Source: Geosiphon pyriformis uo1 (Eukaryota; Fungi; Glomeromycota). Taken from it: a stretch of DNA of 64,000 bases. The notes beneath the pieces were generated by a model, which saw only the letters and a program-made list of their open reading frames with translations, ran no database searches and was not told the DNA's origin. The position numbers were made by a program, and so were the translations under genes. Location of the stretch: NCBI GenBank assembly GCA_016748015.1, contig JAAOMT010000070.1, positions 1 to 64,000 of the forward strand. Reading direction: 5' to 3'. Below, in pieces: positions 1,059 through 59,300 of this stretch. Within the stretch, counting starts at the first letter, position 1, and every line of letters begins with the position of its first letter.

Positions 1059-1233
1059 ACGTTATCTGGTGTTATTACATGTTATTTTGTGTTATCCTAC
1101 ATTATAATGTGTTATCCTGCATTATTTTAAGTTATAATGTGTTATTCAATATTATTGTACACTATTTTGTGTTATGTCACATTTTGGTCACATTTTTTTA
1201 TAACTTTGGATTGATTTTTCTACTCAGATAACA
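1059..1233 (-). repeat. Probable terminal fragment of a fourth LTR family (D) with a 10-bp tandem array
   Basis: Ends ...GATAACA (TGTTATC on minus), like the other LTRs; cuts the LINE APE frame exactly after LISVC; more than 10 units of GTTAT(T/C)NNNT; itself interrupted by LTR-A at ACGT. Confidence 0.6.
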
Positions 1234-6866: not shown

Positions 6867-7008
6867 AAATATATATAATTAGTTATTATATTATGCATGT
6901 GATATATAGATCATGTGATAAGATATTAATTATTTTTTATAGTTCTATCTCTCTATAGTCACCACAAATGTGCTGACCAAAAGGTGTGATTATAAAGAAA
7001 GTTCACTG

Positions 7009-34199: not shown

Positions 34200-37100
34200 G
34201 TAGCAGAATTGGAAAAAATAAGAACAAACTATTTAGGATTTACCAAATTTTTATTTTAATATTACTGTCAATACTTGGGATTAACCAGTAACCACTTATC
34301 AGCAGAATCAGTCTTTAATTTCTATGTCAACAAAAAAATTTTCTATTTTCTAAAAACAACAGTAAATATCAAATTAGCAAGAAGAAATTTTTACGACAAA
34401 TTAATTCAAAACACCAGCTTATCAGTAACTCATAATTTCGCATCAATTATCACTAAAATTAACCAAAAAATTAAAAATTATATTTAACAAAGATATCCAA
34501 TTATCTATGTAAACAAGAATAAGGAAAAACTACAAACATTAGCAATAACACCTCAAAGAATACAACCACCTACTTGGAAGAAAACAAGAGTTAAATCACC
34601 AACTAATCTATTATATTACTACACATTTAGAAATGCCATCAACATTTTATCAACTGGTGCATTCACATCAAATACAAAAACAGCATTAGCCTGACTTTTA
34701 TTTCAAAGTAAACAAAAGAAAGCAAAGTTATTAAAAACCTATAATGATTATTTTGAAGGATTTAATTTACAATTACCAATGCCATTAGAATTTTGATCAC
34801 CGCCTCCTTAATCAGATTTCAAAACTGCCAGTTTTTGGAAAATTATGAAATCAGAAAAAAAAGATAAAAATTAGGAATTTAATTATCAAAACCCAATCTT
34901 AGAAAACACAGAAATACAAACTCCGAATATTCAAGCTCAATAAAATCAGAACAATCTTAATTCTAACATTATTAATTAGCAAAACTTACCTTCAGTAATT
35001 ATGATTGGTCAACCACCAATTAAACCAATTGCCAAATTATCTCAACAGTCACAATCATAACCACAACCACAACAACAACTTCAATAGCTCCAACAACTAA
35101 TTGTACCAATAACATATGTCCCAATTACCAAAATTAAAAAATTTACTGACAAGGAAGATAATGCACAAGTGTGACTAAACAATATAAAAAAAATCATTGC
35201 AGCCAATGGATAGAACAATGCCAAAGCAATACAAACCATTTCTTATTTTTTTCAGGACATTGCTGATTTATAGTATCAAAACTTAACAAACAAATCCCAA
35301 AATTTCAACATATTCAAACTTGAGTTTCTTAAATATTTTAGTAATAACAACAGTATCAACTATCTGGCAAATACTCTTACTACAATTAAACAAGAAGATA
35401 CTAAAGCAGTTACCACTTACTTAGGACACTTTCATCAAAATTTGCGCCAAATCCAAACAATTGATGCCAACTATTTTACAGAGCCACAAATCTTAAACCA
35501 GTTTATTTGTGGCTTATGCAGTAGTATCCTTCAACATGTATGCTCATTATATTCAGCCAACTTTCAAGCAGCAGTTACTTATACCAGAAATTTTGAATTA
35601 GTAAAACTCGAAACCAATCATGCCCAAGCTGTAAATTTAGTAATAAACAGATTATTTGACTTAGACTCAAAATTAAAACAGTTCAGTAACTCAATTAATC
35701 AGAAAATTGAGGGATATTTAATTAATAATCAAGCAATTTATTAACCTTCACAATAACACAATAATCAAAAAACTCAAATTGTTTTCAAAATCAGTCACAT
35801 TTATCATCATTCACAGATTAATTATGGCAGCAAATGTATATCTATTACTACTGTAGTAAACAAAAACACTTAAAAATAGACTGCTGATTGAGATTAAATA
35901 ATCAATAATTAGAAGACTAATATCAAAACTCTGATCACCAATTTCAAACTCCAAGTTATCAGCCAAACTCAAAATCTTATTAACCTCATTACTTACCAAT
36001 AATGTAACAACTAATATACACACCTCCAATTTATCAACCATTACCATCAGTAATCTATCAATCACTATTGTCTCAAGTAATCTATCAATCCCAACTAATT
36101 CAAACACCACTTCAAATCTCAGCTCAAAAAACAACAGAAAATCCAAGATCAAGAGTCATCCAAAACTGGAAATCAGTGATAACCATATACCAACTAATCT
36201 CCAGTTCTTCCAATCAATAATTAGGATCACACCAGTGGAGTTTAGAAATTGTGAATGCTCAAAACCTGAATTCTCAACACTATTTGAGTTTTTGGTAACC
36301 CCAGAAAATGCCTCATGTAATAATCTAAAATTCAACTAAAAACAGCTACTTACCAGCAACATTCTACCAGCAGTCATCATTAAAAACAAATCTATAGCAG
36401 CCATATTCTCTTTTGAATTAGAAGAACCAGTTTTAACTCTTTTGTTTAGTGGAGCCATTCTCAACACCAAATTTTTTACAGCAATGTACACCAATACCAA
36501 AGTTAATAGTTATCCCAATAAATTAATATTAAACAGTAGTTTAGCAGGCAGCATTATTACATGACAATTCATAAACCAATTAGGTTGCTAAGTTGATCAT
36601 GCTGCCAGCACCAGAATTATCACTGTTAATGGAACTACCAAAACTCTAATTGGCAAAATTGATAACTTTTCATTTGAAGTCAATAGCATTACTATATTCA
36701 TTAAAGTATTAGTGATAGAAACTACTCAATACTAAGCTCTTGTTGGTAATAACTGGCTAACAAAGACCAATGCTGTATTTGATTGGACCACCCAAGAATT
36801 GCAATTCAGCCAAAATGGCCAGCACACACAAGTACCAGCAACTTGTGATCACTTTAAACTTACAACCATGCCAGCACCACTAATTAACATTGAAGAAAAA
36901 ATAAACAAACTTATCTAAGAAGCCTATCAAGTCTTATGGACTAACACCAACCACAACAAACTGCCATCAATACTCTCTTGAGATGACAAGAGAAAAAGAA
37001 AAAAAGAAGATAAACTCAAAAAAATCACAACCATAAAAGAAATAACTAGTGGTTGAAAAAAATTATACTTACACAAACTCATCAAAAAACCACCACACAT

Positions 37101-40100
37101 CCTACTCAAATGTAAAGACTATAAGAAAAAGCTGTCTTCTCTGGGAGCATGGATCACACCAAACAAAGACTATTGGATGTGCACACACTACTACTATAAG
37201 CCATGTCACAAAAAACACTACAAATACCCAAAATAACAGGAAAAGTGAGACAATAAATCATGTCTTGCTTGTAAAAAAACCTTATTTAATGAAAAAATAT
37301 GGAACAACATTTCTGGTTAAAGAGAAATATGCAATGCATCATGCTAGTATACAATTCTTATAAGTAACTGAGTGAGTTGTAGAACATCTATTGATGCAGT
37401 ATGATGCTGAGCAATCTTTCACTTAGATGAATATTCACATAACAAGGATGAAATTTGGCAAATGGCAAACACTAAAATAGAAGACATTTTACCCAGTGAG
37501 ATCTTGAAAATAAAAAACAACTCACCAAAACTAGTTAAAGTTATTTTCATTTCCAATCTAGATGTATTTTTGAATATTAAAACAGGTCCAGAAGAGTTCT
37601 ATGAACACTACCAAAATTTAGCACCCACAAGAAAAAAGCAAAAACAGCATTTAGAACAACTAAACACTTGACTATGTGACTACTGTTTGATCCCATATGA
37701 CTTCCAATATTGTAATAAGTGTGATCTCATTTACAATCTACCAACATGCATGATCTACACAATCCCTGAAGAAGAAAAACCAATCAGCAGCTGTGCATCA
37801 GAATCAGAATTAACATTTAATCTCAATTTAAACTCCAATAATGATGACCACAATGATTTCAGTTCCATTCAGAATAACAATAACAACAACAATAATTCAA
37901 ACTCTAATTTAAACCCAGAATACTATATCGTGCTTCTTGATTTATCAAAAGATTAAGAACTCAAATAGTTCAGCAATAATAATGAAGATATTATGTCAAA
38001 ACATGTACATGATACCAATACAAGATTGGATCTAAAATATCCAAGAAAAAATGCCATCAAATTGGAATCACATTTACATATCTGTATTAATCTAAAAATA
38101 GTACTGGAAATTCCAGCAACAACAATGATTCAATTAGTATCTAGGAGTAGTTTAGTGAAAAAAGGTATTAATATTAAAGAAGAAATAATTGATGCAGAAT
38201 ATGTAGAAAATATTATTGTAATGCTACAAAATGATTCAAAAAAGGCTTATATTATAGAGCCAAATGAAAAGATAGCACAAGCAATATTTCTGCCTTTGGT
38301 TAAAGTAGTACAGTTAGTATTAGTAAGAAATAAGAAAAAATTAGAGATTACAGCTAGGAAAATTAGTAAATTCAGATCTATGAGTAGAATAGACATACTG
38401 GTTAATATGGTAGAGAAAAAAATTATTGACAAGGAAGAAATTATCTTTATCCATCAATCAGTTTCTATTCTACTATATAACAGATATATGTTAATAGTAA
38501 AAAGAAAAGTGAGGGATCAATCACAAATTTTTGAAGCCAAGCCAATTATTTGCAAATCAGAAAAAATTGGGCTTATCAATCTTTACATACTAGCCAAGAA
38601 CAACAACCACATTAAAATTCCCATCTACAATACAATGAAAGACTTTATAAAAATAACAAAAAAGACTATCATTAGATACTTGACCATTGAAGTTAAGAAA
38701 CAACCACCAAACCCCATTCCAAATTTTCTACAACTATGTAGATATGTGAATATTACATTACAAACAATTTATGGACAAGAAGAATATTATCTGTTCTAAT
38801 CAGAATAATTAGAACAAATGAACTTAGAAAACTTGAACTTACTTTAATAAATGCAACTCAAAATGTTACTTAATAATTTTACTGACATATTTGCCAGTGA
38901 GAACAAATTTGGTAGAATTAATATTATTCAACACTAAGTTAAAACAGAAGATACAATGCCAATTAAACAAAAAACATATTGAATATCATTAGCAAAGCCA
39001 TAAAATTATATAACAAAAAATAAACTGAATATTAGACAATGGGTTAATTCAACCATCAATGAGTTCATGGTCTTTACCAATTATATTGGTTTGGAAAAAA
39101 AATGGAAAAATTCAATTTTGCATGGATTACCAAAAATTGAATAGAATAATAAAAGAAGATAGCTACTCAACTCCAAAGATTCAAAAACTTTTTGATGTAT
39201 TTGAAGAAAAAAAATGGTTCTTAACATTAGACTTGAATAGTGGTTACTAACAAGTAACCATGAAACCAGAAGATAAGAAGAAAACAGCATTTACAACCTA
39301 AGAAGAATATTTCAAATTCGACATTATGTCTTTTGGCTTAATAAATGCTTCAGCCATTTTCCAATGGCTAATAGAAATTGTTTATAGAGAACTATTGTGG
39401 AAATCAGTAATTGTGTATTTAGATAACACCAACATATTTTCAAAAACATTTGATAACCATCTTCATTATCTACAATAGGTGTTCAAAAGATTAAGACAAG
39501 CAAGACTAAAGTTAAATGCCACCAAATGCTTCTTTGGAAAAACAGAATTGAAATTTTTGGGACATATAATAAGCAAAGATGGAATTAAAACAGATCCAGA
39601 TAAAATAGAAATAGTAAAAAACTTTTTAGTACCAACAAACTTAACAGAACTAAGAGTATTTTTAGAATTTGCTAAATACTACTGGCACTTTATCAAAGAT
39701 TTTTCCAAACTAGCTCAACCATTGTACCAACTCCAAACAAAAAATACCAAATACAAATGAACTGAAACCCAACAAAAAGCTTTTAACACACTGAAAAGAA
39801 AGCTTATTTAAACTCTAGTATTAATTTATCCAAATCACATCAAACTGTTTATTATTACCACTAATATATCTGATCAAGCATTAAAAGCTGTACAATCTCA
39901 AAAAAAACCAGATGGATGAAAACATCCAGTAGCTTACACCAGCTGAAACTTAAGCCCAGCTGAGAAAAACTATAGAACACTAGCATTAGTGCACTTAGCT
40001 ATCTACTGGGCTGTTATTAAATAGAAAGAATATTTAAGTTAAAAGTTTAATGTATATACTGATTACAAAATATTAACATCAATTCAAAAACAAGAATTTA

Positions 40101-40219
40101 AAAACAACTGTTATACAAGATGAAAAATAGAACTATCTATATTTAATTATACAATACATTATAAAAAAAGAAAAAAAAATGGAAATACTGACAGTTTATC
40201 ATAAATAAGACAAATCTAA
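34200..40219 (+). pseudogene. B1 gag-protease-Cys-rich-dUTPase-RT-RNase H polyprotein
   Basis: ORFs 34275, 35442, 37462, 37687, 37993 (dUTPase), 39059 and 39479 (RT); stop TAA at 40217-40219. Confidence 0.9.
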
Positions 40220-40249: not shown

Positions 40250-40372
40250 ATGAATACACAAAAATATCAACAACTCCAATATTATATTAATACTCAACAG
40301 TTTCAGGAGAAATTATCTCAAAAAGAGTAAAACAACATAAAACAACAATTCAAATATTTTATCACTCACCAG
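40250..40372 (+). pseudogene. B1 integrase ORF, N-terminus
   Basis: ATG at 40250, MNTQKYQQLQYYINTQ, homologous to B2 43244. Confidence 0.8.
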
Positions 40373-41178: not shown

Positions 41179-41808
41179 TTAATATTGAGCTCTGTCAAAA
41201 TCTAATTCCTTTAATTCTCCCCTTTGAAGTATTTCCTGAATTTTGTTTTCAAGAATTACTTGTGTTATTTGAGTCTGTAATTCTTCAAATTGAGCATTGA
41301 TGATTTTTCCCAATTAATTACTGGTAACCATATTCATTGCTTTGTTAAGTAGAATTTCTGGTTGATTCTGAAATGCTGTGTGTATTTGGTATATAGCTCG
41401 AACTTGTATGGATAAGTTGTTTTTCCCCATAAAATGTTCTAGTTGTTGTAGTATTGTTGTGTCAAATAATCACTTTGTTTTATCCGTATATAAGTTCTGG
41501 ATATTTACATGTTGTCCCAAGTAAAAATAACAATAATTTTTTGGAAATTGTTGTGTCTATCAGGTCCAAGTTTCCCTGGTAAGTTTTTGGTGTAATTCAA
41601 CTATTTGTTGTTCTTTTATGACCAATTTTATCTTGGTCATGATCTTGTTAACAACATTTTCAAGTCTTTTCTGTGCTTTGTTTTGTGGTATCTTTGCCAT
41701 ATTTTTGTAACGAATGGTTTGTTGATTGATTGTAATTTCCATCTCCTGGTGTTGAATTAATTGAAAAATTTGTTGGGCTAGTGAATGGATATTGTTTGTA
41801 ATTTCCAT
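41179..41808 (-). pseudogene. B2 ORF3, unknown ~209 aa protein
   Basis: MEITNNIHSLAQQIFQ..YFYLGQ..VRAIYQI..; homologous to 62723-63355 and 46176-46895; stop abuts the PPT. Confidence 0.8.
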
Positions 41809-41861
41809 TTTTCTGATCTTTTCTGTCGCGTCGACCATGTTCTTATATATTCTTTTGTCAA

Positions 41862-43244: not shown

Positions 43245-43306
43245 CTTTTGTTATATTTTTCGTTGGTATTGTTCTGGTTTTGTTATATTTTTGGGTTAAA
43301 ATGTTC

Positions 43307-45229
43307 TTAGATTTGTCTTATTCACAACAAACCATCAGCATTTCCATTGTTTTTTCCTTTTTTATAATGTATAGTATAATTATATGGGGTAAGTGCCATT
43401 TTTCATCTTGACTGTCTTCCATCTTCAAATTCTTGTTTTTGAAGTGATGTTAATCCTTTGTGATCTGTGTATACTTCAAACTTCTGGCTCAAGTATTTTT
43501 TCCATTTCATGACTGCCCAGTATATTGTTAAGTGTTCTTGTTCCGGTGTTTCATAGTTCTTTTTGGCTGGCATTAAACCTTTGCTGGCATATGCTACTGG
43601 ATGTTTTCTGCTGTCTGGTCTTTTCTGAGATAATACTGCTCCCAATGCTTAACTGAATGCATTGGTGGTAATGATGAATGGTTTGCTGTGATTTGAATAG
43701 ATCAGTACTGGAGCTTGAATGAGCTTTCTTTTCAGAATATCAAAAGCTTCTTGTTGACTTTTTGTTCATTCATATTTTGTATTCTTGGTTTGCAGTTGGT
43801 TGAGTGGCTGTGCTATCTTGGAAAAGTTCTTAATAAAACGTCGATAATAGCTGGTGAATCCCAAGAATAATTTCAGTTCTGTCATATTGGTTAGCACTGG
43901 AAAGTTTTTTACTATCTCTATTTTCTCTGGATCCATTTTGATGCCATCTTTGCTGACTATGTGTCCCAAGAATTTTAGTTCTGTCTTGCCAAAGAAGCAC
44001 TTTGTTGTATTTAACTTTAGTCTTGCTCTTCTTAGTCTTTCGAACACTTGTTGAAGATGATAAAGATGATCATCAAACATTTTTAAGAATACATTGGTGT
44101 TGTCCAAGTATACAACTACTGATTTTTACAATAAGCCAGTATAAACAATTTCCATTAACCATTGGAAAGTGGCTGGTGTGTTGATTAAGCCAAATGGCAT
44201 TACTTCAAATTCAAAATTTCTTTCTCTGGTGGTAAATGCCATCTTTTCTTTGTTAGCTGAATTTATGGCTACTTGTCAGTAACCACTGTTCAGGTCTAAT
44301 GTTGAAAACCATTTGTTTCCACCGAAAGTGTTGAATAATTTTTGAATCCATAAAGTGGGGTAGCTATCTCCACAAGTTATTTCATTGAGTTTTCTATAAT
44401 CTACACAAAAGCGAATTTTCCCATTCTTTTTCCAGACGAGTACCACAGGTGATAACCATGGGCTCATTGATGGCTGAATTAGCTTATTGTCAAGCATTCG
44501 GTTTATCTCTTGATGAATAATCTCGTGGCTAACTGGTGGTACTCTGTATGCTCTTTGTTTAATTGGCATTGCATCTCCAGTCTTGATTTGATGCTGGATG
44601 ATGTCAGTTCAGCCAAACTCATTTTCGCTGGCAAAGATGTCATTGAAATTGTTGAGCAACATCTTAAGTTACATATGTTGGAGTGGATCTAAGTTTCCCA
44701 GGTTCATTTGTTCTAACTGTTCTGGTTGGAGCAAGTAACATTTGTTTTGTCTGTATATTGTTTGTAATGTGATATCAACATATCTACAAAGTTGTGAAAA
44801 GTCTGGAATGATGCTTGGTGGTTGATTCTCTATTTCTGTGGTCAAATATCCAATTGTGGTTCCTTCCAGTATATTGACAACATTTTTGGTGTTGTTGTAG
44901 ATGGAAATTTTAATGCAGCTATAGTTTTTGGCTGATATGTGGAAATTGATGAGTCCAATTTCTCCTGATTCACAAAGACTTGCTTCTGCTTCAAAAATTT
45001 GTGCTTGGTCTTTTACTTTCTTTTTTATTGTTACCAGGTACTGGTCGTATGATAAAATAGAAATTGCTTGACTGGTTGAGATAATTTCTTGGCCAACAAT
45101 TTCTTCCTCCACTATATTAACTGGTACATCTATTTTACCTGTTGACTCAAATCCATGTATCCCTCTTGCTGTTATTCCTAACTCTTCCCTATTTCTCATT
45201 GGTACTAACTAAGCTATCTTAATCAATGG
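43307..45229 (-). pseudogene. B2 polyprotein 3' part: dUTPase motif 5, linker domain, RT, RNase H
   Basis: RGIHGFESTG; RFCVDYRKLN, TLDLNSGY, MPFGL, YLDNT; GAVLSQ, FEVYTDH, NADGL; stop at 43307-43309. Confidence 0.93.
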
Positions 45230-46207
45230 TGTTATTAGAGGTTTTTGGTCTCTTCTTAGCTTTTGTATGTTTGTTGTAATACTGTTAATTCATAACTTAT
45301 GGGAAGTATTTAAACCTCCGATAACTGAATTTTATCTTCAAATTATCTCCTATAATTTGAACTGCTGGGCTTATAAGTGGAATGGTCAATTCTATGCCAG
45401 TTGCTTTGTGTAATTATGTTGTAGTAAACATCAACTCTTTCCCAGAAATTGCTTGTTTGGAAGCTCACTAAATGTGTGTAGTTATTTTGCTGTGAAAGTC
45501 AACTTTTCTACAAGAATTCTTGTCTGTAGGCTACCCAAATAATTTATAATAAGAAAAGAAAAAAAATGAAAGAAATGTAAAAGAAAAGTAAAACTGGTGA
45601 TTTATGGAAGTTGTTTTGGATCCAGACCTGGAAGTGCTTTAACAGTCTACTGATATTGGTAGCTAATCAATTTCAAACTGTTAGTAGGAATTGGTTAATT
45701 TCAAGAGAAATAATTAAGAATTTGGCTTTTCAAATTTATTTGATATTTTATTTTGTTTTTGTGTGTGAAGGGTGATTCTAATTGTTAAATCTGAAATAAG
45801 ATACATTTTCTCGAAGAGAGAAGCTCTTCTTTTATACAACTTGTCATAACACTATTTTATGAACTTAAACTTTGCTATTTTCTTTAATTTCACTGAACTA
45901 GAGATACATTTCGGCAAACTACAAGTTATTTCTGCAAACTATTAGATATTTCAGTAAACTATCAATTATTTTGGTGAATTTCTACAAATTTCAGCAAACT
46001 TTTTAAATGTTACATAGTTCGGGGTATTGCATGATTGATCATCGCAATTAGGTTACATTTGTGTTATGTACAAATTGAGTTATTAATTAAATAATAATTT
46101 CGGATATTTTGCTAATGTAATAAGTGATAATTTGAAATGCTAATTAATGATAAGAATTATAAGGATAATTTCATGCTAAGCAATATCTCTAATTTCGTTT
46201 GGTAACA
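45230..46207 (-). repeat. Family A 3' LTR
   Basis: Direct repeat of 54142-55119, differing almost only by transitions. Confidence 0.95.
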
Positions 46208-46895
46208 TAATCTCCTCCTCAAGACTAAGCTCTGTTGAAGTCCAAGTACCATCTGTAATTTCCAGATAGTAATCCAAAATTATTGAAGAAATTTGGTCTG
46301 AAAATTGTTGAAATTTCAGTTCTGTGAGCTTTTCAATATATTGAATCTTCAAAGGTTGTAAAATTGGGTTTTGTAGAACGTTTTCACAGGTGTGGAATAG
46401 GTCATAAAGTCTAAGAGCAGCTCTTAGTTTATAGCAACTGTTTGTAAGTTCAGCTGTTGTTTTGAATTTGTTGTGGAGTTGTTTTTGAATAGCATTTTTT
46501 GTGAAGTTTGCTGCTGTAAGCTCCCATTTTCATTTGTGAAGTGTTTTTCTAATGTAAAAATATCTATATATTGGAGTATAGTTGTGGTTTTCTTCATTAA
46601 GACACAATTGAAGTTTTTGTTGAATAGTAGCATTTGGTGGAATACTAATAGGAGTGAGCATTAAATTTTCTCTTAAAGCAAGCTTCAAAAGTTCTGGTAG
46701 ATGAATTCCAGAATAACTTCTTGTGTTCTTTTTGTAGGAGTGATAATTTTGTGAATTTGGGGCTAAATTGGCAACTATTTCTGTTTGAGTATAATTAATA
46801 TGTTTTCCTGTAATAGTAATAGATAATTCGGGTATTGTCTTTAAAGCTGACATTAGTTTCTGGGATAATTGTTGAATGTTTTGAGGAATAGTCAT
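46176..46895 (-). pseudogene. Family A ORF3, unknown ~239 aa protein
   Basis: MTIPQNIQQLSQKL..YRYFYI..RAALRLYDLF..IEKLTELKF; one internal TGA (46530); frame runs through the PPT into the LTR. Confidence 0.8.
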
Positions 46896-47046
46896 TATAA
46901 AAATTTTGAGTGAGAGAAAAAAATAGATTGAAATTATTTTTGGTATGTGGGTTTTTATGTTATTTTTGTTTTTCAGTGTGTTTTGTTTGTTTTGTTTTTG
47001 TGAAATTATTTTTAATTTATAAGGGAATAACTATAGTAAATTTAAA

Positions 47047-48429
47047 TTAAGTGTTCAAGTTAGGAGGTTGTTCAATAACAACTATTGGTTCTAAATTTCA
47101 GAAAATATTTTCAGGCTTAATTAAAAGGGAATGTGTACCAATTTGTGAAATTAATGGTTCAGGATTGTTTCTGGAATGATAGTGTTTTAGACAATTTCTA
47201 TGTGCAACTTTTGCTAGGATTTTGTCATCAAGTCTTAACTTGTATGATCTGTTGCCTAGAATTTCATAGATAAAGAATGATCTGTCCCATTTATTTTCAA
47301 ATTTTCCACTCCATTGTTTTTTAGCTTAGTTCTGTATAAGAGAACTTTGTTTCCAACCTTAAATTTATTGGTGACTAGTGGCAATTTGTTGTTATGCCAT
47401 TCTTTTTGTTGAGCTTGGGAGTGTTTGATATGAGTGGCTGCTATTTATTGTTTTCCTTCCAATGTGCTGAGAAGAGTGTAGGCTCTTTGTTAGAGCATTT
47501 CTTGAAAGTTTTCTTTGTTAATTGGTTGCACTGAATATGGTTTCACAGTGAAATTAATTGGTAACGTTGCTGTCCTTCCATAGGTTAAGTCAAATAGTGT
47601 GTGTTTTGTGGTATTTTGTTTTAGTGTTCTATATGCTAGTAACACTAATAGAATAAAGATATCCCATTTCTGTTCAAAATCAGTTAAGACTTTGGTTAAT
47701 AATTCACAGTGTTCTATTGAAACATTCTACAAGTCCATTTGTTTGTGGATGATAAGATAAAGACAACAGTCTTTTAACATTGAATTGTTCACAAATTTCT
47801 TGGATTAGATTGTTCATGAAATGTGTTCTTTGGTCAGACAAAAGTTTGATTGGACAATTATGTTTACAGATGATGTCTTTGTAAATGAAATTTGCTACTG
47901 ATTTCACATCTGCTCATTGAATGGCTCTGGCTTTGGGCCATTTAGTAAGATAGTTTACAGCTACTGTAATATAATGGTTTCTTTGATTTGTGATAGGTAA
48001 TGGTCCAACTAAATTGATACCAACTCAGTCAAAGAGTTGTCCAACTTTGATTGGATTTAAAAGTTCTGTAGGGTGAGTTCCTCCTCTTTTTTGACAATTA
48101 TCACAAGATTTGACATATTCATGAATGTCTTTTCTCATTCGAGGCCAAAAGTAGTGTTCTAATGTTCTTTGGATGGTGCTATTTTTTTCTAAATGGGCTG
48201 ATGAAGAGTCCGAGTGCATGTTATATAAGATAGTTTCCTTTTTATGTTCTTGTATTAATCTGAGTGGTTTGTCTGGATTTCGGAAGTTTCGATAATAAAT
48301 GATGTTGTTGTGTAAAAAATATTGTTTGGCTTGTTGTTGTAACTGATGTTTTTTGTCTGGGGACCAATCTGTTGGGATTGTTAATGTCTCTAAATATTGT
48401 TTGAGATTGTTGTAGTTTTCGGCGTTCAT
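47047..48429 (-). pseudogene. Family A integrase, separate ORF
   Basis: ATG 50 nt after the RNase H stop, in a different frame; MHSD..AH..YFWP..CDNC, GI(D>N)LVGPL, SDQ, NGLVE. Confidence 0.92.
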
Positions 48430-50319
48430 TGTTTGTTGTTTTGATGCTGTTAATTCAAATGGGTGTTGGTTTTTGTTTTCTAATCTTGCCTCATTCTTGA
48501 GAGACAGTCAACATTGGTGTGAAGTTTTCCTGATTTGTGGTGTACTATATATTGATAGTTTGCTAGAAATCCTATCCATCGGATTTGTTTTGCATTGAGT
48601 TGGGTGTTTTTGTTTTGTAACCATTTGAGTCCAATATTATCAGTAATAATATCAAATTCTTTAGGTCTGAGATAAAGGTTGAAGTGGTGTAAGTCCCAAA
48701 TTATGGCTGCTGTTTTTAGTTCTGTGGCAGGGTAATTTTTCTCAGCTGGTTTCAATGTTCTGCTAATATAAGCGATTACTTGCTCATTTCCATTGTCATC
48801 TAATTGTGATAGGATAGTACCAAAGACAGTATAAAAGGCATCTGTTACTAATCAGAATTGGTTGCTGAAATCTGGGTAGACAAGAATTGGAGCTGTTGTT
48901 AGTTTTTCTTTAAAGATTTCAAATGCATTTTGGTGTTCAGCAGTCTATTTGTATTTGACGTTTTTGGTGGTAAGCTGGTTGAGAAGTTTTGCAATTTTTG
49001 AGAATTCTTTGATAAACTTTCGATAGTAGAAGACTAACCCTATGAATCCTCTTAGTTCTGTAGTGTTTTGAAGAGTTTTGAAGTTTTTGACAGCACTGAT
49101 TTTTCCAGAGTCCAGTTTGATTCCATCTTTACTAACGATATAACCAAAGAAGGCCAAGCTTGTTTTTCCAAAGTAGCATTTTTTGATGTTGAGTTTCAGT
49201 CCTGTTTTTTGTAATCATTGAAAAACTTCTTGCAGATGTTTTAAGTGTAATTCGAATGATGGAAAATAAACATCAGTATTGTCAAGATAAATGACTACTG
49301 ACTTTCAAAGAAGCCCTTTATACACAACATCTATTAATCTCTAAAATGTTGCTAGTGCACTGCATAATCCGAAAGACATTATATTGAATTCATAATTTCC
49401 TTCTTGAATTGTGAAGGCTGTTTTGGAACAATCTTTGGGATTCATGGCAACTTGCCAGTATCTGCTTTCTAGATCTAGTGTTGAAAAGTATTGGATTTTC
49501 CAAGGGCATCTAACATGTTATCGATTCGGAGAAGAGGGTAGGCATTTTCAATGATGACACTATTGAGTTGTTGATAATCAACACAAAATCATATCTTTCT
49601 ATTTTTCTTCTTATTTAGGACCACAGATGAAGCCCATGGACTCATTGATGGTTAAATAAGCCCATTGTTAAGCATTTGTTGTACTTCTTCTTGGATAAAT
49701 TGGTGACTTTTTGGAGCAACTCGGTAGGCTTGTTGTTGTCTTGGTTTGACATCTCCTGTATAGATTTGGTGTTGAACCAAATCAGTTCTTCCTAAGTTAT
49801 TGTTGTTTTTGGCAAAAATATTGGCAAATTCTGTAATTAGCTCTTTGAGCTGGCTCTGTTGTTGTGGTTCAAGTTGTCCCATGTTGATTCGAGATAGTTT
49901 TTCCATGACAACATGGTAGTTTTTAGAGCTGGGGTTTGGGTTGATTTTTGGTAGTGAATGTCCAATAATTTTGGAGAAATCGGGGACTGTTTGGGGTAAT
50001 TCTTATTGAAAGATATTACTGTGAATAACTCCAATTTCTAAGTTATTTAATAAAACTATGAGATAATTGTTGGGATTGTAAAAAGTAACTTGAACTTTTT
50101 TTGTTCCTTTTGGAATATAAATGTTTGGGATCAAAATATTATGTTCCAAGTAGACTTGTTTGTTGGACTCAAAAATTTGTCATGTGGTTGTTGGCTTTTC
50201 ACAAGTGTAAATTTCAGAGTGTTCTTCAAAGGGTGAAATAGTAATTGGTTATGAAGGTTGTAGAATCTGGTGAGATTCACTTTGTTCATTAAGAGCTATG
50301 TTTACTGGAACTGTGAATC

Positions 50320-50740
50320 GTCCAGTTGAACCAAAACCATTGGTTTCTTTTTCACTTTTTCCCAATTGTTCTCTTTGACTGACTAATTGTAAACCTGAAA
50401 TGTTGATTAAGGGTAAATAAATAGCTTAAGCAATTTTTTTGGTATGTTCAATCTGAAAAGGTTTATTAGTTTCATTTTGTAACATGATTGTAATGTCTCC
50501 TGTATATCCAGCATCTATGATTCCTCTTCTAACATTGATTCTTTTTCTTGCCAATGATGATTGTAAAGCAATTTGGACCATTGCTCCTGGTGAGATTTCA
50601 AGGGCAATTTTGAAGTTGATCTTGGTAAAGAAATTTGGTTGAAGAACCAAAGTGTCTTTTCCTGGATATTATAGATTGTATCCAGCATCAATTTTATGTG
50701 CTTTTTTGGACTTTATTTCTTGTTTGTTGTTGTTGAAGTA
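50320..50740 (-). pseudogene. dut: dUTPase domain of family A
   Basis: Trimeric dUTPase motifs: DAGY(D>N)L, (R>Q)SS, GIIDAGYTG, KIA(Q), GFGSTG. Confidence 0.92.
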
Positions 50741-50859
50741 TTTGAGCTGTAAAGCAGGCTGACTTTTAATAAGATAAATGGGTGTCATTTCAATTTCTTC
50801 CGTTGCTTTAGGTTCACCAAATTCAATTTCATATTTGTCACTTTCACTGGGTAATGGAA

Positions 50860-51490
50860 TGCTAAGGGCATAGCATTCAGGACACCATTGTTCATCACAA
50901 GGCATTATGCATTCCTCACATAATTTAATGTTTATTTGCTCTAGCCATTAGGCTTGAACTTCTTTGGTCAGGTAGATGTGACTTGCAATTTGATGATACA
51001 CTTCTACTTCATTTTCATAATTGAATCCAGCTAATTTCAAGGTATATTCAATATATTCAGCTTCTTTCATTTGAAGGACATCTTCTTTGGTTCCTTCATT
51101 AATTAAAACCATAGCAAGTTCATAGATTATTTCGGCATCATGGGAGTAATAATGGAGTTTGTTGAGGATGATATTGTATGCAGCATTGAAAGGTGTTCTA
51201 TGTTTTACTTTTTTTGCAATAGAAAGAGCATATTGGCAAGTTTGATCGCAGACTCTTCCTCTAAATGCAACATCAATCCAGTCACATTCATTGAGAAGCT
51301 GCTTTCCACAAGTAAGACAGGGTGTTCTATCCTATTTTCTGCTTCTTTTGATCAAGTGGCTCCATCGTTCTCAATGGCAGGCCTTGCAGTAGTAGCAGAT
51401 ATGACTTTCATATTCTTCCTCAGGTGAAATACAAGCTCCCATTGATAATAGTTTTTTGTGGCAGTCTTTACATTTAAGGGGAATATAGGA
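50860..51490 (-). other. Cys-rich putative multi-zinc-finger domain between protease and dUTPase (family A)
   Basis: CKDC..CKAC..CLTC..CDQTC..CEEC..CPEC; same pattern at 56690-57320 and 37090-37740. Confidence 0.75.
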
Positions 51491-54141
51491 GCATTGTTTT
51501 CTTGGTTCAGGCTTTGAGTAAGAGATATTCCATCCAGGGGTTTTAGGTTCAGAGTGTGGAGTAAAATGTTCTTATTTAGTTTCCTCGGCCCAATTGGACG
51601 TTGATCCAAAAGCCATAAATGTTTTGATTATTGGTTTTTTTTCTTCTGGTTTGAATTCAAAAGCTGGGGCTTTTTCAGAGCATTTGTTGAATGTACCACA
51701 AGTGGCAGGTACTCGAGCATATTGTCTTTGGTAAGAGATTTGTAGTTCTTGGGTTTTCCAGTCTAATTTCACATTGGCTTTTTGAAGCCAGTCATTTCTG
51801 ACAAGGGCTTGATACTGAGGAGCATCCATTATAAGAACTTTGACTGAAATGATGATTCCATCAAGAGTGAACGGAAAATTGTCAATTTCTCCTACTGGAG
51901 TCTTTTTCATGCTATCGGCAGTAACAATTACTGTTTGAGCTGGTTGGTCAACATTTCTCTTTAACTGTTGCATTAACTGATAGGTAATAATGCTTCCAGC
52001 AGATCCACTATCTAGGATCAAGTGAATTGTCTTTTCTTTGACTTCTGCTTTAGTGTACATAGCAGTGATTGCTTTTTGTTTGTTGGCAGCTGCATTGTTA
52101 AGCAGGAATGGTAACTCATTTGCTTTGAACTTAAAAGGAAATATATCTAAAAAGTTGGCATTTTCAGCAATTCTGGCTGGTGGGATTGTGGTAGAAGTAT
52201 AGGAAGGGTTTTGTTGTTGTGCTGTAGCTCTGCCTTCCAAGAGTGCAGTATGGTAAAAATCTTGTTCTTCAGATATTGTAAGATAGCTAAGTTGAGTATG
52301 ATAATGGGTGGGTCTTGGCTAAGCTGGATTTTGGGAAACTAATTGGTTATTTGGGTTAATTCTGTTGTTGTTTGTTGTGAATCGGTTTTGTGGTGCAAAT
52401 TGGTTTTGTTGAACCAATCTTCGAGCAGGTACTTGGTAATGTTGAATGGGTTGTCGATACTGTTGTTGCATTGGCTGTGAAGCAAGTTGATAGTAGTCAG
52501 TTTGATATTGTGGTCTTGGTGGATAGTAAGCTGGTGGTAGTGGTAATTGGTAATAAGATTGTTGTGGTGAAGGATAACATTGATTACTCCTGTTTTGTTG
52601 GTCTCATTGTAGCTTTCTGCAATCTCTTTTCCAGTGGCTAGGGTTTCTACAGTAATGGCAATTCTAAGACTGGTTATTAAAGAATGATACGAAGTTGTTT
52701 TGATTTCGTCTTTGGGGTGGTTGATATCTTTGGGGTTGCTGTTGTTGTTGATTGGTGAAATAGTTTTTGACTTTCTTTGTGAGTTGGTCAATTTTTTTTT
52801 CAGCTGCTAAGCTGGTCTCTCCAATGGCTAAGTTCACAAGTTTTGTATGATTGGCTTCTTCCATAGCCATTTCATATCTCTTTGCATACTAAATGGCAGA
52901 GTTTAAATCTTCCAGAGCATGTGAGTGAACCTTTTTAATCAGTTTATCCTTTAAACTAGCAATAAATTGATCCAAAATTTGAGCATCAAAATAATAATCA
53001 TTAGTTTCAAGTTGGTGAATTCGTCTGAGAAGTTTGTTGAATTTCCCAATATAAGTCATGACAGATTCAGAGGATTTTTGTTTGATATTGTAAAATGATT
53101 TCAAAGTGTGATTAAAGTGTTGTTATTGGTGAATTGTTCTAGGAAGGCAGTTTTGAAAGCTGTCCAGTCATTAAAAGAGGTGGTCAAGCTTTCGAACTAT
53201 TTGCCTGCTGTTTTTTTAAGAAAGTAAGGAATTGTTCTTAACATTCTGGCAGCATTCCATCCATTTGCATCTCCAGTTTTAGTAACTTGGTCAAGCCATT
53301 TTTGGGGACTGGTTTCAATATCTTCTCCATTAAATTCAGGGATTTTTGCGATATATGCTGTCATTTTGTCTTCTTTGTTTTCACTGTCTATTGATTCTTC
53401 TTCAGATATTTCAAAGTCATTTTCTTCATTCGCTGCTGTCTTAGAGTGTTCACTTCTATTTTCAGCTAGAAAATCAAGGAGATTGGAACTAGTTTGAAGA
53501 GGTTCTTGTTGTCTGGTGGGACTTCTGGATGATGTAAAATTTTCTAGTCTTGCAAATCAATTTAAGGGTGAATTAGGTGTTTGTGCTTGTGCAAGTGAAG
53601 CTGGAAAAGGTGTGATAATAAGTGGAAGTTTTGAACTGGTTCCTTGCTCAGGTGTTTTTAAGTGTTTGGCTGTTGTTTTTGGTAGTATTGGAGTATTTAA
53701 GGTGGTTTTTGAGTATTGCTTCAATTTTTGTTTGCCTTTGTTGCTTGTTTCTGTCTCTGATTCAAAATCAATAGAGTATTGAGACTGCACTGGATAGGTT
53801 TCTTCACAGTACTTGATAATGTTAAAATTAAGTTCTTAAAAGTAAGTGGCAAGTGTTTCACTGTTAAGGTCTTTAGTTTCCAACTGTGAATAGTGTACTA
53901 AATTATTGTAAAGATTGCTTCTAACTTCTGAGATATTGTAATTTCCAAAAAGATAATTGTTGATGCGGTTTTCAATGTATTGGTATACTGATTTCTTGAC
54001 AACTTCAATTCCGTCTGGAATGTTGAATCTTTGCTTGCAGTGAGTGTAAATTGACTGGTAATACTCTAGAGTTATTACATCTGGTGTGATTGCCACTTTG
54101 AAGTTGTTTTTGCTGTGTTATTTCTATGAGAGAGCACCAAA

Positions 54142-55119
54142 TGTTACCAGAGGTTTTTGGTCTCTTCTTAGCTCTTGTATGTTTGTTGTAATGTTGTTAA
54201 TTCATGACTTATGGGAAGTGTTTGAACCTCTGATAACTGAATTTTATCTTCAAATTATCTCCTATAATTTGAACTGCTGGGCTTATAAGTGGAATGGCCA
54301 ATTCTGTGCCAGTTGCTTTGTGTAGTTACATTGTAGTAAACGTCAACTCTTTCTCAGAAATTGCTTGTCTAAAAGCTTACTAAATGTGTGTAGTTACTTT
54401 GCTGTGAAAGTCAACTCTTCTTCAGGAATTCTTGTCTGTAAACTACCCAAATAATTTATAATAAGAAAAGAAAGAGAATGAAAGAAATGTAAAAGAAAAG
54501 TAAAACTGGTGATTTATGGAAGTCGTTTCGGATCCAGGTCTGGAAGTGCTTTAACAGTCTACTGAAATTGGTAGCTAATCAATTTCAAACTGTTAGTAGG
54601 AATTGGTTAATTTCAAGGGAAATAATTAAGAATTTGGCTTTTCAAATTTATTTGATATTTTATTTTGTTTTTGTGTGTGAAGGGTGATTCTAATTGTTAA
54701 ATCTGAAATAAGATATATTTTCTCAAAGAGAGAAGCTTTTTTTTTATACAACTTGTTGTAACACTATTCTATAAACTTGAACTTTGCTATTTTCTTTAAT
54801 TTTGCTGAACTAGAGATATATTTTGGCAAACTACAAGTTATTTCTGCAAACTATTAGATATTTTGGTGAACTATCAATTATTTTGGCAAATTTCTACAAA
54901 TTTCAGTGAATTTTTTGAATGTTACATAGTTCGGGGTATTGCATGATTGATTATCACAATTAGGTTACATTTGTGTTATGTACAAATTGGGTTATTAATT
55001 AAATGATAATTTCGAATATTTTGCTAATGTAATAAGTGATAATTTGAAATGCTAATTAATGATAAGAATTATAAGGATAATTTCATGCTAAGCAATATCT
55101 CTAATTTTGTCTGGTAACA
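54142..55119 (-). repeat. Family A 5' LTR
   Basis: TGTTACCAGA..TCTGGTAACA; PBS adjacent. Confidence 0.95.
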
Positions 55120-55375
55120 ACAATAAGAATATTGCCTGTGCTATTTTTTTATTTGGTTCTATAATATAGGCCTTTTCTGAGTCATTTTGTAACATGGCAA
55201 TGATATTTCCTACGTATTCCGTGTCAATTATTCCTCCTCTTATATTAATCTCTCTGTTTGCTAAACTACTCTGGGATGCTAGTTGAACCATTGTTGTTGC
55301 TGGGATTTCCAGCACTATTTTCAAATCAATACAGGTGCGTGAATGTGGTTCTAATTTGATGGCATTTTTTTCTGG
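55120..55375 (-). pseudogene. dut: Core of the B2 dUTPase, isolated between two family A insertions
   Basis: LAS(R>Q)SSLA, GGIIDTEYVG, KIAQAIF (ORF 55088-55324). Confidence 0.9.
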
Positions 55376-56365
55376 TGTTACTGGAAGTTTTTGGTCTCTT
55401 TTCTGTAATGTTGTTGATGCCTGTTTGCTGTGAATTTACGTTTTCTGAATGTAGTTAAACCTCCAATAACTGAATTTATCTTCAAATTATCTCCTATAAT
55501 TTGAACTGCTGGGCTTATAAGTGGAATGGCCAATTCCATGCCAGTTGCTTTGTGTAGTTATGTTGTAGTAAACGTCAACTCTTTTCCAGGAATTGCTTGT
55601 CTGGAAGCTCACCAAAATGTGTAGTTATTTTGCTGTGAAAATCAACTCTTCTACAGGAATCTTATCTGTAGGCTACCTTAATGATTATGATAAGAAAATA
55701 AAAGAAAGAAAATAAAAATAAAAAATGTAAAAGAAATAGAATTCTGTCAAGGGAAACGTTTTCTATCCAGGTTTGGAGTCACTAACAGTTTACTGAAATT
55801 GGTAGCTAATCAATTTCAAGACATTAATTGGGCTTTGGGGATTTTCCAAGTGCAATAATTAAAGAATTTGGTTTTTTTTTGAATTATTTGATATTTATTT
55901 TTTTTTGTGTATGTAGGAATGATTCTAAGTAATAAATCTAGAGTAAGATACATTTTCTCAAAGAGAGAAGCTCTTCTTTTATACAACTTGTCATAACACT
56001 ATTCTATGAATTTGAACTTTGCTATTTTCTATAATTTTGCTGAAGTAAAGATACATTTCGGTGAACTACAAGTTATTTCTGTGAACTATTAGATATTTCG
56101 GTGAACTATCAATTATTTTGGTGAATTTCTTACAAATTTCGGCAAACTTTTTAAATGTTACATAGTTTGGGGTATTGCATGATTGATCATTACAATTAGG
56201 TTACATTTGTGTTATGTACAAATTGGGTTATTAATTAAATGATAATTTCAGATATTTTGCTAATATAATAAGTAATAATTTGAAATGATAATATATGCTA
56301 ATTAATGATAAAATTTATAAGGGTAATTTTATGCTAAACAATATCTCTAATTTCGTCTGGTAATA
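55376..56365 (-). repeat. Solo LTR, family A
   Basis: TSD CTGG/CTGA; frame DAGFDLKYP(G)K restored on removal. Confidence 0.93.
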
Positions 56366-59300
56366 CTGAATACTTCAAGTCAAATCCAGCATCAGTATTA
56401 TGCACGCATTCTGGCATAATACTTTTATTATTATCGCTGAACCATTTTAGTTCTTGTTCCTTGGTAAAGTCAGAAAGCATGATATATTGTTTATAGTTTG
56501 AGTCAGAGTTTGAATTTGAGTTGATATTGTTGTCATTGTCATTGCTATTTTAAACAAAGCTGGAACTATTATTCTCATCGTCATCATTGTTGGAGTTTGA
56601 ATCAGGATTGAATGGTGATTCTGACTTCGATGTACAGCTATTAATTGGTCCTTCCTTTTCAGGGATTGTGTAGATCATGCATGGTGGTGGATTGTAAATG
56701 AGGTCACAATTGTCACAATATTTAAAGTTACTGGGAATTAAACAATGGCGACACAGTCTTGTATTCAACTGTGCTAGCCATTGTTTTTGCTCTTCTTTAG
56801 TGGGTGCCAAGTTTTGGTAGTGTTCATAGAACTTTTCTGGTTCCAGGAAATTTATAACTGGCTCTGTGTCCCAATTAAGCTTGATGGGTTCTAGTGGGTT
56901 GTTTTTAATTGTCCTGATTTCTTCTGGTGATGCGCCTTCAATTTTGGCAATTGCCATTCACCATAATTCATTGTCATCGTGTGGGCAACTGTTCAATCAC
57001 TGTACAGCTTTTCTCCAGGCGGCTTCTATTGGTGTCCCTTTCTCAACCCAGTTACTGATGAGGATTGTGTATTGGCAGGAAACATTGCACGTTCCTTCTC
57101 TCCCAGGAATGTTGTTCCACATTCCTTCGTCAAGGAGAGTTTTTCTACAGGCTAAACATGGTGTATTATCTCATTTTCCTACTTGCTTTGGTCTTCCAAA
57201 ATGTTTGACAAGGCATGCGCAGCAGTAGAACTTGGTTGCCATCTAATATTCTTTGTTGTTGCCACAGCATGCACCCATTGATGACAATTTCTTGCCACAA
57301 TTGACGCACACTAGTTTGGGTCAGTGATAGGTGAATTGTTGTGGTGTTGTGTTTTGATAGGAGGTATACAAGTTTGTTGGCAGTGGCTCTTTTTCTTTCA
57401 CTTTTTCTTTCTCTTGGTTGCTTTCTTTCCATTCCTGGCTTGGTGTCAGTTTTCTTTTATCATTGTCAGTCCAGGTTAGGTCATCTGTTTCCCAGGTAAG
57501 TTCTTCTCTTTGCTTTCCCTTTAGGTTGTTATCCTACAATAGTATTGGTGGTAGTTCGTAGTGGTCTTTGTCATCAGTTCAAGTGTCAATAGTAGTTCTA
57601 CAGATAGGTTCTTTTCTTTGTTCTTCCTTTCCATTGTTATCATCGTCCCAAGTGAGTATTGGTGGCAGTTCATTGTGGTCGACGTCAGCCCATGATGCTT
57701 GGTATACCTCCCAAGTAGGCTTTAGTTTTTCCTCCTCGAGGTCAATAAGCAGTACTGATGTTGTAACGTAGTTAGGTTTGAAATGGCCACATGTTGCTGG
57801 TACTCATGTGTGTTGGCCATTTTGGTTGAGCTGGAGCTCCTGTGTGGTCCAGTCAAGGATGGCATTGTTTTTAAACAACCAATTATTGTCTACTAATGCT
57901 TGGTATTAAGTTGCTTCCATTACCAAAACTTTAATAGGAGTAATGATGTCATTAACTTCAATCAAGAAGTTGTTAATTTTACCAATAGGCATTTTTGTGG
58001 CACCATTGGCAGTAATAATTCTAGCGCTGGCAGCTCAATCAACTCAGTAATTTAATTGATCCATGAGTTGTTGTGTGATGATGCTGCCTGCTGAACCACT
58101 GTCAAGGATTAACTTGATGGAGTGGTCATTGACTTTTGCATCAATGTACATGGCAGTGATAGGTTTTTCTTCCAGAGCTGCTCTACTGAATAAGAAAACT
58201 GACATAACTTCCTTGAGTTCAAATGGAAAGATGGCTGCTAAAGACTCGTCGTTAGTGATAATTACTGGTGGAATGTTATTGGTACGTATTGTTGGTTGTT
58301 AATCGAGTTCTGGATTGTTGGAGGTGACATCTTCTGGAGTAACCAGGAGACTTAAATAGTTCTGAGAATTCGGGTTTTGGGTGGAACTGATACTTAAATT
58401 CCATTGACAAGATCCTAATTGCTGGCCTGATGAACTGGGGATCAGTTGATGAACAATCATTGCTGATCTCCAGTTTTGGGTGATTCTGGATCTTGGGTTT
58501 CTTGACGTTATTGTAGCTAAGTTTTGGTGCAGTGTTTAAACTTGTTGGGATTGATAGATTACTGGAGGCTGCGGCTGATAAATAACTTGTGGCTGCAGTT
58601 GATAAATTGTTGGTGGCTGTGGCTGATAAATTGGCAGTTGATATATTGTTGGCTGATAAATTGGTTGCTGCGTCATAGACAGGTAAGCATTTTAATATTG
58701 CTCTTGATTGGATTGGTGATTCAGAGTCTGAAACTGGCAATCAGAGTTTCGATAATAATTTCCCAATCATGAGTTGCTATAAATATGACAGTTTGTCCTA
58801 ATATGCCCTTGTTTACCACAGTTGTAGTAGACACGTGTTTCTGGCTGTCGTGATTAATTAATAGACAATCCTAGATATGATTGATTCTAAAAACAATTCG
58901 CATTTCCTAAATCATTACGTTGTTGGAGTGGCTGATAAATTACACGATTGTCAGCTAAATAGTTTTCTAATTTCTGATTGATGTTGTCACTGAATTGTTT
59001 TAGCTTGGAATCCAGGTTAGATGATCTGTTTATTACTAAATTCACAGCTTGGGCATGGTTAGCTTCTAACTTGGTGGCTTTAAAATCTCTGGCATGAGTT
59101 ACAGCGGTTGAGAGATTAACTGGATGCATTGGACATACTCACTGGAAGATGCTACTGCACAATCCTCAGATGAATTGGTTCAAGATCTGTGGTACTGTAA
59201 AGTAGTCAGCTTAGATTGCCTGAATTTGGTGCAGATTTCTATGGAAGCATCCCAAGTAAGTGGTGACTGCTTCTGTGACTCTTTGTTTGATGGTAGTGAA

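What the first reader, a model, noticed from the sequence alone, without database searches (positions are those of the whole stretch)
50860..51490. Unrecognised ~210-aa Cys-rich domain inside the polyprotein
Seen: six Cys pairs conserved in A (CKDC, CKAC, CLTC, CDQTC, CEEC, CPEC), B2 (CVNC, CCAC, CLAC, CNVSC, CRHC, CDNC; 56690-57320) and B1, plus conserved KKLxSMGA, (W)DxTPCL, GTP and HD motifs. Established: canonical Gypsy Pol has no such domain between PR and RT. Inference: about three C4 zinc sites, possibly a chromatin/nucleic-acid reader or counter-defence module travelling with the dUTPase.
Basis: partly seen in the sequence, partly recalled or inferred. Interest (0 to 1): 0.72.

Follow-up and report, generated by a model that had tools for sequence, protein, structure and literature searches.

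The report
Three-zinc-finger domain in fungal retrotransposons
Decayed jumping genes of a mycorrhizal-type fungus carry a conserved, unnamed 200-residue domain with twelve cysteines between their protease and dUTPase; it is predicted to hold three zinc ions and likely works as a binding adaptor that keeps the dUTPase near the element's own nucleic acid, though no function has been tested.

Summary
Observation confirmed. Three nested Ty3/Gypsy elements in the window (A inside B2 inside B1) carry the domain in frame between protease and dUTPase. Twelve Cys are the majority residue in subfamilies A, B1, B2 and in one stop-free polyprotein from an unnamed ENA record; first-to-last Cys spans 199-203 aa while the linkers vary; codon-position divergence indicates protein-level selection. 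All 240 listed word-search hits are Geosiphon pyriformis; the ENA protein is the only other source seen. No Pfam, PHROG, NCBIfam or PDB match; AlphaFold predicts two treble-clef-like fingers, a confident helical bundle and a poorly modelled third C4 site. The 'HD' motif is not invariant and no nuclease site is present. 'Travels with the dUTPase' holds (62 of 71); 'chromatin reader' and 'counter-defence' have no support either way. Best guess (0.35): a non-catalytic tether for dUTPase, by analogy with betaretroviral NC-dUTPase; a candidate protease site between the two domains argues against permanent fusion. The scan has noted other, apparently different Cys/His modules in the same slot in other genomes (unchecked). 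Verdict: a real, unnamed, lineage-restricted accessory domain; new variant of a known kind; interest 0.42.

The parts
50873..51472 (-). Cys-rich accessory domain of element A, first to twelfth conserved Cys (200 codons, 3 stops)
51377..51472 (-). Zn site 1 (CxxC-x24-CxxC), basic, predicted treble-clef-like
51236..51319 (-). Zn site 2 (CxxC-x19-CxxxC-[QK]Y), predicted treble-clef-like, runs into helix 1
50921..51235 (-). helical part: confident three-helix bundle with the GTP turn, then long helices; neutral to acidic
50873..50920 (-). Zn site 3 (CxxC-x8-CxxC), conserved but modelled at pLDDT <50
51602..51628 (-). candidate protease cleavage motif between protease and the Cys domain (inferred by eye)
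50762..50788 (-). candidate protease cleavage motif between the Cys domain and dUTPase (inferred by eye)
51701..52084 (-). aspartic protease of A, same frame, upstream
50318..50746 (-). dUTPase of A, same frame, downstream (PF00692 E 7.9e-14)
48500..49939 (-). RT and RNase H of A (one frameshift near 49490)
47150..48498 (-). integrase of A behind a stop after RNase H; H2C2, rve, SH3-like end; no chromodomain hit
54142..55119 (-). 5' LTR of A (TG..CA), 93.6% identical to the 3' LTR
45230..46207 (-). 3' LTR of A, preceded by a purine-rich tract
56706..57308 (-). Cys domain of element B2 (12 of 12 Cys), in the same frame as Gag, protease and the start of dUTPase
37084..37752 (+). Cys domain of element B1 (10 of 12 Cys), between protease 36478-36843 and dUTPase 37960-38388
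55112..56450 (-). dUTPase of B2, split by a solo LTR (55376-56363) and by element A; last piece at 45134-45229

Best explanation
This is a conserved accessory domain in the Gag-Pol frame of a fungal Ty3/Gypsy lineage, placed between protease and dUTPase, that is predicted to bind three zinc ions and likely acts as a non-catalytic tether holding the dUTPase at the element's RNA/cDNA inside the particle. Shown: position, single reading frame, twelve conserved Cys, fixed core length, codon-level signature of selection, co-inheritance with protease, dUTPase and RT. Predicted: two treble-clef-like fingers, a helical bundle and a third C4 site. Inferred: the element's protease cuts at the motif upstream, the product stays joined to or associated with the dUTPase trimer, the basic first finger binds nucleic acid, and dUTP is removed where reverse transcription takes place, as the NC part is reported to do in betaretroviral NC-dUTPase.
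For: Domain order and frame; dUTPase next in 62 of 71 and protease before in 64 of 75 extended relatives, the rest being other pieces of the same elements by eye; Cys in 74-96% of rows at the 12 positions, Tyr the main replacement; codon-position identity 0.48/0.60/0.39, 0.50/0.62/0.42, 0.65/0.73/0.50, like protease and dUTPase; B1/B2 the closest window pair in all four domains; model residues 1-45 superpose on LIM fingers (rmsd 1.9-2.4 over 37-38 residues, Z 2.7-2.8) and 52-101 on the T4 endonuclease VII zinc region (rmsd 2.5 over 50, Z 2.6); first finger net +3 to +7 in 5 of 5 sequences; all five dUTPase motifs readable in the stop-free P0271 (motifs recalled). Precedents read as passages: NC-dUTPase keeps nucleic-acid binding and dUTPase activity (PMC4531489); Juno has a Zn knuckle after its dUTPase (PMC5408684); domains captured by plant Gypsy elements mostly interact with RNA or DNA (PMC9289625).
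Against: The whole domain is neutral to acidic (net -13 to +2), unlike basic NC. A cleavage-like motif also lies between the domain and dUTPase in 4 of 4 sequences, and the linker is 33-74 aa and variable, which fits two separate mature proteins. Treble clefs also bind proteins (LIM, ClpX). The fold matches are all at Z below 3 and Foldseek E above 1, and the window copy's own model did not resolve finger 1. Adjacency in a polyprotein does not show functional coupling; whether dUTPase-bearing relatives without the domain exist was not tested.
Confidence: 0.35

Rival explanations
1. A released zinc-finger adaptor that guides the integration complex to chromatin or to a host protein, standing in for the chromodomain these integrases lack.
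For: No chromodomain hit on A's integrase; integrase lies behind a stop, so a partner in trans is conceivable; nearest finger folds (LIM, ClpX ZBD) are protein-binding; one sub-threshold zf-HC5HC2H hit in P0299 (E 0.0019, 18.8 bits against a cut-off of 29.1); conserved aromatic residues W54, W72, Y88.
Against: No C4HC3 pattern and no conserved His in the fingers; the PHD-like hit is in 1 of 4 proteins scanned and not among the 25 families shown for the 70 members; known Gypsy targeting domains sit on integrase (own knowledge).
Confidence: 0.2
2. A counter-defence protein: a zinc-binding adaptor that blocks or redirects a host restriction factor (RNAi, DNA methylation, deaminase or uracil repair), analogous in role to lentiviral accessory proteins.
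For: Faster divergence than the enzymes (40% against 56-62% between A and P0271); acidic helical half; the host genome shows strong CpG loss (o/e 0.0-0.34) and 61 of 63 LTR differences are transitions; UNG2 recruitment as an alternative to dUTPase is described for primate lentiviruses (PMC4531489 passage).
Against: No sequence resemblance to any suppressor or E3 adaptor was found; zinc-scaffold domains generally diverge faster than enzymes, so the rate is not specific; every window copy is decayed.
Confidence: 0.15
3. A structural or processing module of the particle (RNA chaperone, folding spacer that times protease cleavage, or RT cofactor) with no special link to dUTPase.
For: In B2 Gag, protease, the domain and dUTPase share one frame, so it would be made with Gag; cleavage-like motifs on both sides.
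Against: Canonical Gypsy elements assemble without it (own knowledge); a separate Gag zinc knuckle is present.
Confidence: 0.18
4. A captured His-Me (endonuclease VII/HNH-like) nuclease finger, active or dead.
For: Model residues 52-101 align to T4 endonuclease VII 14-76 (Z 2.6); HNH and NinG proteins are frequent among the weak viral Foldseek rows (E 0.2-2); an Asp (D74) in the hairpin is conserved.
Against: No His follows that Asp (W-x-D-[IV]) and the residue after the last Cys is Gln/Lys, not Asn (catalytic pattern recalled); all these matches are explained by a shared treble clef.
Confidence: 0.05
5. A passenger with no function.
For: All window copies are broken; range is very narrow.
Against: Kept in frame with 12 Cys and a fixed core length across lineages about 40-45% identical, while flanking linkers are unalignable.
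Confidence: 0.04

Closest known systems
dUTPase-bearing Ty3/Gypsy elements (PosPlaTy3-5 of Postia placenta; PMC2864245, passages)
   Same: dUTPase between protease and RT in a fungal Gypsy Pol
   Different: No Cys-rich domain before the dUTPase is mentioned in the passages read; those elements are chromoviruses, these have no chromodomain hit
Juno LTR retrotransposons of bdelloid rotifers (PMC5408684, passages)
   Same: dUTPase between protease and RT with an extra zinc-binding motif beside it
   Different: One Zn knuckle after the dUTPase, not a 200-aa three-site C4 domain before it
Betaretroviral NC-dUTPase (MMTV p30, M-PMV; PMC4531489, passages)
   Same: Zinc-binding module N-terminal to a retroelement dUTPase; the model for how this could work
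   Different: There the module is Gag's own basic NC joined by a frameshift and never cleaved off; here it is an extra, mostly acidic C4 domain after the protease, with a candidate cleavage motif before the dUTPase
C4 treble-clef zinc fingers (LIM half-domain, ClpX ZBD, GATA, endonuclease VII, MYM/FCS)
   Same: Cys-pair spacing and predicted knuckle-hairpin-helix arrangement of sites 1 and 2
   Different: No significant sequence or structure match to any one family; joined to a helical bundle and a third C4 site

Membership tests
Ty3/Gypsy LTR retrotransposon (host element) | direct LTRs with TG..CA ends | tested here: met
   A: 45230-46207 and 54142-55119, 93.6%
Ty3/Gypsy LTR retrotransposon (host element) | order protease - RT - RNase H - integrase | tested here: met
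   Pfam hits in that order
Ty3/Gypsy LTR retrotransposon (host element) | primer-binding site and polypurine tract | tested here: inconclusive
   TGG-starting tract after the 5' LTR and purine-rich tract before the 3' LTR by eye; no tRNA assigned
C4 treble-clef zinc finger | four conserved Cys ligands in two pairs | tested here: met
   sites 1 and 2: Cys is the majority in 5 of 5 groups
C4 treble-clef zinc finger | knuckle, hairpin and helix fold | tested here: inconclusive
   seen in the P0271-based model, Z 2.6-2.8, rmsd 1.9-2.5; finger 1 unresolved in the window-based model
C4 treble-clef zinc finger | zinc binding | not testable with these tools
   needs metal analysis
LIM domain | two fingers two residues apart, His as third ligand (pattern recalled) | tested here: not met
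   20 residues between C38 and C59, no His ligand; Pfam LIM only E 0.24 on B2's first finger
MYM/FCS zinc finger | CxxC-x19-22-[FY]CSxxC (pattern recalled) | tested here: not met
   spacing of 19 fits, but the motif reads [VTM]C[DN]xxC; no zf-FCS hit listed
PHD finger | C4HC3 ligand set (recalled) | tested here: not met
   no His shared across subfamilies in the finger region; one sub-threshold PHD-like hit
His-Me nuclease (endonuclease VII/HNH) | catalytic His in the first strand and Asn after the last Cys (recalled) | tested here: not met
   W-x-D-[IV] and C-[QK]-Y
Betaretroviral NC-dUTPase | Gag NC with CCHC knuckles fused by frameshift to dUTPase | tested here: not met
   domain is C4, after the protease, in frame with dUTPase
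Betaretroviral NC-dUTPase | mature fusion protein that binds nucleic acid and hydrolyses dUTP | not testable with these tools
   needs processing and binding assays

The most novel reading that the evidence does not exclude
A new zinc-finger protein family made from retrotransposon Gag-Pol that serves as a dedicated partner of the dUTPase, and one instance of a repeated, convergent recruitment of unrelated zinc modules next to retroelement dUTPases (betaretroviral NC, Juno knuckle, other Cys/His modules noted by this scan); this would mean that particle dUTPases generally need a tether to the template, or that this slot holds Vif/Vpr-like accessory proteins in fungal retrotransposons.
Probability: 0.25. 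Interest if true: 0.68.

Novelty: new variant of a known kind. Interest (0 to 1): 0.42.

Why it matters
Stable capture of a new domain by an LTR retrotransposon is described as rare and usually informative about host-element interplay (PMC9289625, abstract and passages). This one is carried by a very abundant family in Geosiphon pyriformis (hundreds of 'hypothetical proteins' are pieces of it), so naming it also cleans up that annotation. The role of dUTPase in retrotransposons is stated as unclear (PMC2864245, passage); a stop-free natural polyprotein (P0271) makes the link between the two domains testable in vitro. The range is narrow and the function unknown, which limits the interest.

Tried and rejected
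No whole genome is held for this window, so elements with dUTPase but without the domain could not be counted. Sequence libraries: Pfam, PHROGs, NCBIfam, PDB sequences, phage genomes (96, with P0341 only): no match for the domain at curated thresholds; weak hits (Imm15 7 of 70, Cytochrome_C7 5 of 70, NMD3 4 of 70, RNases, antibody chains) treated as chance. ESM Atlas: best 0.79 and 0.82, under the 0.9 level, generic zinc-ribbon/LIM clusters. Fold searches: no Foldseek match at E<=0.001 in PDB or BFVD (29, 59, 60); best VIA Z 6.5 and 5.3, helical bundle resembling pilotins, BsaWI N-terminus and winged-helix cores at Z 2.4-6.2, all within the range of common arrangements; this shows neither a new fold nor the lack of a relative, and the fingers were not folded alone. 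DNA collections: viral contigs 0 of 34 and 0 of 49 candidates; JGI metagenomes 0 of 158 and 1 of 80, the one (L001) being a chance match in a bacterial-type repeat protein without the Cys (71). Region search with P0271: only itself among 96 candidates of 585-1862 aa. No RNA holder listed; laying run X1 showed 2190 short contigs, no information on expression. The complex prediction of the domain with a dUTPase trimer gave no verdict (not folded), so binding is open. Four protease/RT comparisons were out of frame and were dropped. The HD motif as a catalytic or metal site was rejected (Glu in P0271). Literature: searches found no description of this domain; the Geosiphon genome paper, Repbase, GyDB and supplements were not seen; the cleavage-site pattern is recalled, as one search gave no usable source.

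Full report
Setting. The window is AT-rich and strongly CpG-depleted and holds a stack of decayed LTR elements. Self-comparison and end inspection give three nested Ty3/Gypsy elements: A (45230-55119, minus strand, LTRs 93.6% identical, 61 of 63 differences transitions) lies in the dUTPase gene of B2 (40373-61408, minus, LTRs about 92% identical), which lies in B1 (plus strand, from about 33310 to the window's end); a solo LTR of A's family (55376-56363) also splits B2's dUTPase. All named relatives are Geosiphon pyriformis proteins, so the window likely comes from that fungus or a close relative (inference).

Observation. The copies are 31-50% identical with E 2e-24 to 9e-57. In A one frame carries the end of Gag, protease, the domain, dUTPase, a spacer and the start of RT; in B2 one frame carries Gag, protease, the domain and the start of dUTPase. 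The exact slot is therefore protease - domain - dUTPase.

Relatives. Word searches gave 166 hits of 219 candidates with A and 121 of 142 with B2; the 120 listed in each were all G. pyriformis hypothetical proteins. A profile search of 1.84 billion representatives gave 474 hits at E<=0.001; of the 150 listed, 29 were proteins already seen and 121 new; I looked up 20 of the new ones: 19 G. pyriformis and one unnamed ENA protein, P0271. The other 324 hits were not shown, and the profile included an acidic linker, so remote relatives are not excluded. P0271 is a stop-free 1064-aa protease - domain - dUTPase - spacer - RT protein about 39% identical to both A and B2 in the domain, with 17 Cys in 216 residues there and 3 in 848 elsewhere. 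A further Geosiphon subfamily (C) appeared; its proteins do not cover the last two Cys. Searches of viral contigs, JGI metagenomes, phage genomes and long proteins with P0271 found nothing more.

Conservation and selection. Over 364 aligned proteins, the twelve Cys occur in 74-96% of rows and Tyr is the main replacement, as expected from G-to-A decay; all twelve are the majority in A, B1, B2 and P0271, the first eight also in C; 45 of 216 positions share one majority residue across groups whose majorities are 36-65% alike. The His of 'HD' is Glu in P0271, and no His is shared by all groups. First-to-last Cys spans 199-203 residues in 4 of 4 sequences, while the distances to the flanking motifs vary from 22 to 132 and 33 to 74. 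Codon-position identity between window copies falls as second > first > third in all three pairs, as in the in-frame protease, dUTPase and RT comparisons (four out-of-frame comparisons dropped). The domain is less conserved than the enzymes (A against P0271: 40% versus 62% protease, 56% dUTPase, 57% RT start) but far more than linkers and spacer, which give no tblastn hit. B1/B2 is the closest window pair in all four domains, which fits inheritance as one block. Of 348 retrieved proteins with the domain (of 361), 62 of 71 with a long C-terminal extension have dUTPase next and 64 of 75 with a long N-terminal extension have protease before; the exceptions read by eye as other parts of the same elements in skipped gene models. 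The retrieved set is selected on the domain, so the reverse question, dUTPase without the domain, is open.

What it looks like. No library names it. AlphaFold2 gave mean pLDDT 64.5 (window copy first) and 70.9 (P0271 first), pTM 0.39-0.44, so the parts are not placed reliably against each other. Both models agree on a confident helical bundle right after the fourth Cys pair. In the better model residues 1-45 superpose on LIM fingers and the ClpX zinc-binding domain and 52-101 on the zinc region of T4 endonuclease VII, at Z 2.6-2.8; LIM, GATA, HNH and MYM-type proteins recur among the non-significant Foldseek rows. I read sites 1 and 2 as treble-clef-like C4 fingers; this is a prediction, and the window-based model did not resolve finger 1. 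Site 3 is conserved but modelled under pLDDT 50. No whole-domain fold match was found (best Z 6.5 and 5.3), which is inconclusive. There is no His-Me catalytic set (pattern recalled). Only the first finger is basic; the whole domain is neutral to acidic. Short hydrophobic motifs of one type recur at all five junctions of the polyprotein, including both sides of the domain; I take them by eye as protease sites (pattern recalled, not tested).

How it most likely works. Shown: a selected, sharply bounded, twelve-Cys domain translated with protease and dUTPase. Predicted: three zinc sites around a helical core, no catalytic centre. Inferred: it is packaged in the particle and acts as a binding adaptor. 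I favour (0.35) a tether that keeps the dUTPase at the RNA/cDNA, by analogy with betaretroviral NC-dUTPase, which keeps both nucleic-acid binding and dUTPase activity (PMC4531489, passages), and with the Zn knuckle beside the Juno dUTPase (PMC5408684, passages). Against it stand the acidic net charge and the candidate cut between the two domains. Rivals: integration or chromatin adaptor (0.2; the integrase has no chromodomain hit and lies behind a stop), particle or processing module unrelated to dUTPase (0.18), counter-defence adaptor (0.15), nuclease relic (0.05), passenger (0.04). Whether the domain binds dUTPase is open.

Comparison and novelty. The host element meets the Gypsy tests; dUTPase between protease and RT is known (PMC2864245, passages). 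The domain fails the defining patterns of LIM, PHD, MYM/FCS, His-Me nuclease and NC, while resembling treble-clef fingers in general. Nine literature searches and passages of PMC11952901, PMC3248453 and PMC9289625 gave no description of it; the Geosiphon genome paper, Repbase, GyDB and supplements were not seen. Earlier notes of this scan report Cys/His modules in the same slot in other genomes; the one motif quoted there differs from ours and sequence look-ups found no look-alike; I did not check them and do not count them as support. Verdict: real, unnamed, lineage-restricted accessory domain; new variant of a known kind; interest 0.42.

Noticed in passing
window 33310-64000: Three-level nesting: element A and a solo LTR of its family both sit in the dUTPase gene of B2, about 250 bp apart; B2 sits in B1 in opposite orientation near B1's RNase H/integrase junction.
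   Followed up: yes
window 48480-48500 (-), 43300-43320 (-), 40150-40170 (+): In A, B2 and B1 a stop follows RNase H at the same place and the integrase continues in another frame, as other notes on this genome report.
   Followed up: partly
window 45226-45229 / 55120-55123 and 40369-40372 / 61409-61412: Four-base flanks ATGG/ACAA (A) and CCAG/TCAG (B2) could be decayed CpG-centred target duplications.
   Followed up: partly
window 46300-47000 (-) and 41500-41850 (-): Extra reading frames between integrase and the 3' LTR in A (about 166 aa open, 46530-47030) and B2; not identified.
   Followed up: no
window 56450-56650 (-): B-type elements have a long Asn/Asp/Ser-rich linker between the Cys domain and dUTPase and a long acidic linker before it; A has short ones.
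   Followed up: partly
window 14800-17170 (-): A more decayed Gypsy fragment with protease and RT, interrupted by a copy of the A-type LTR (17174-18117); no hit to the Cys domain or dUTPase.
   Followed up: partly
window 3-1060: Another LTR of A's family (83% identical) at the window start.
   Followed up: no
window 6990-7820 (-): A 276-codon stop-free frame, related DNA at 26557-26905; not examined.
   Followed up: no
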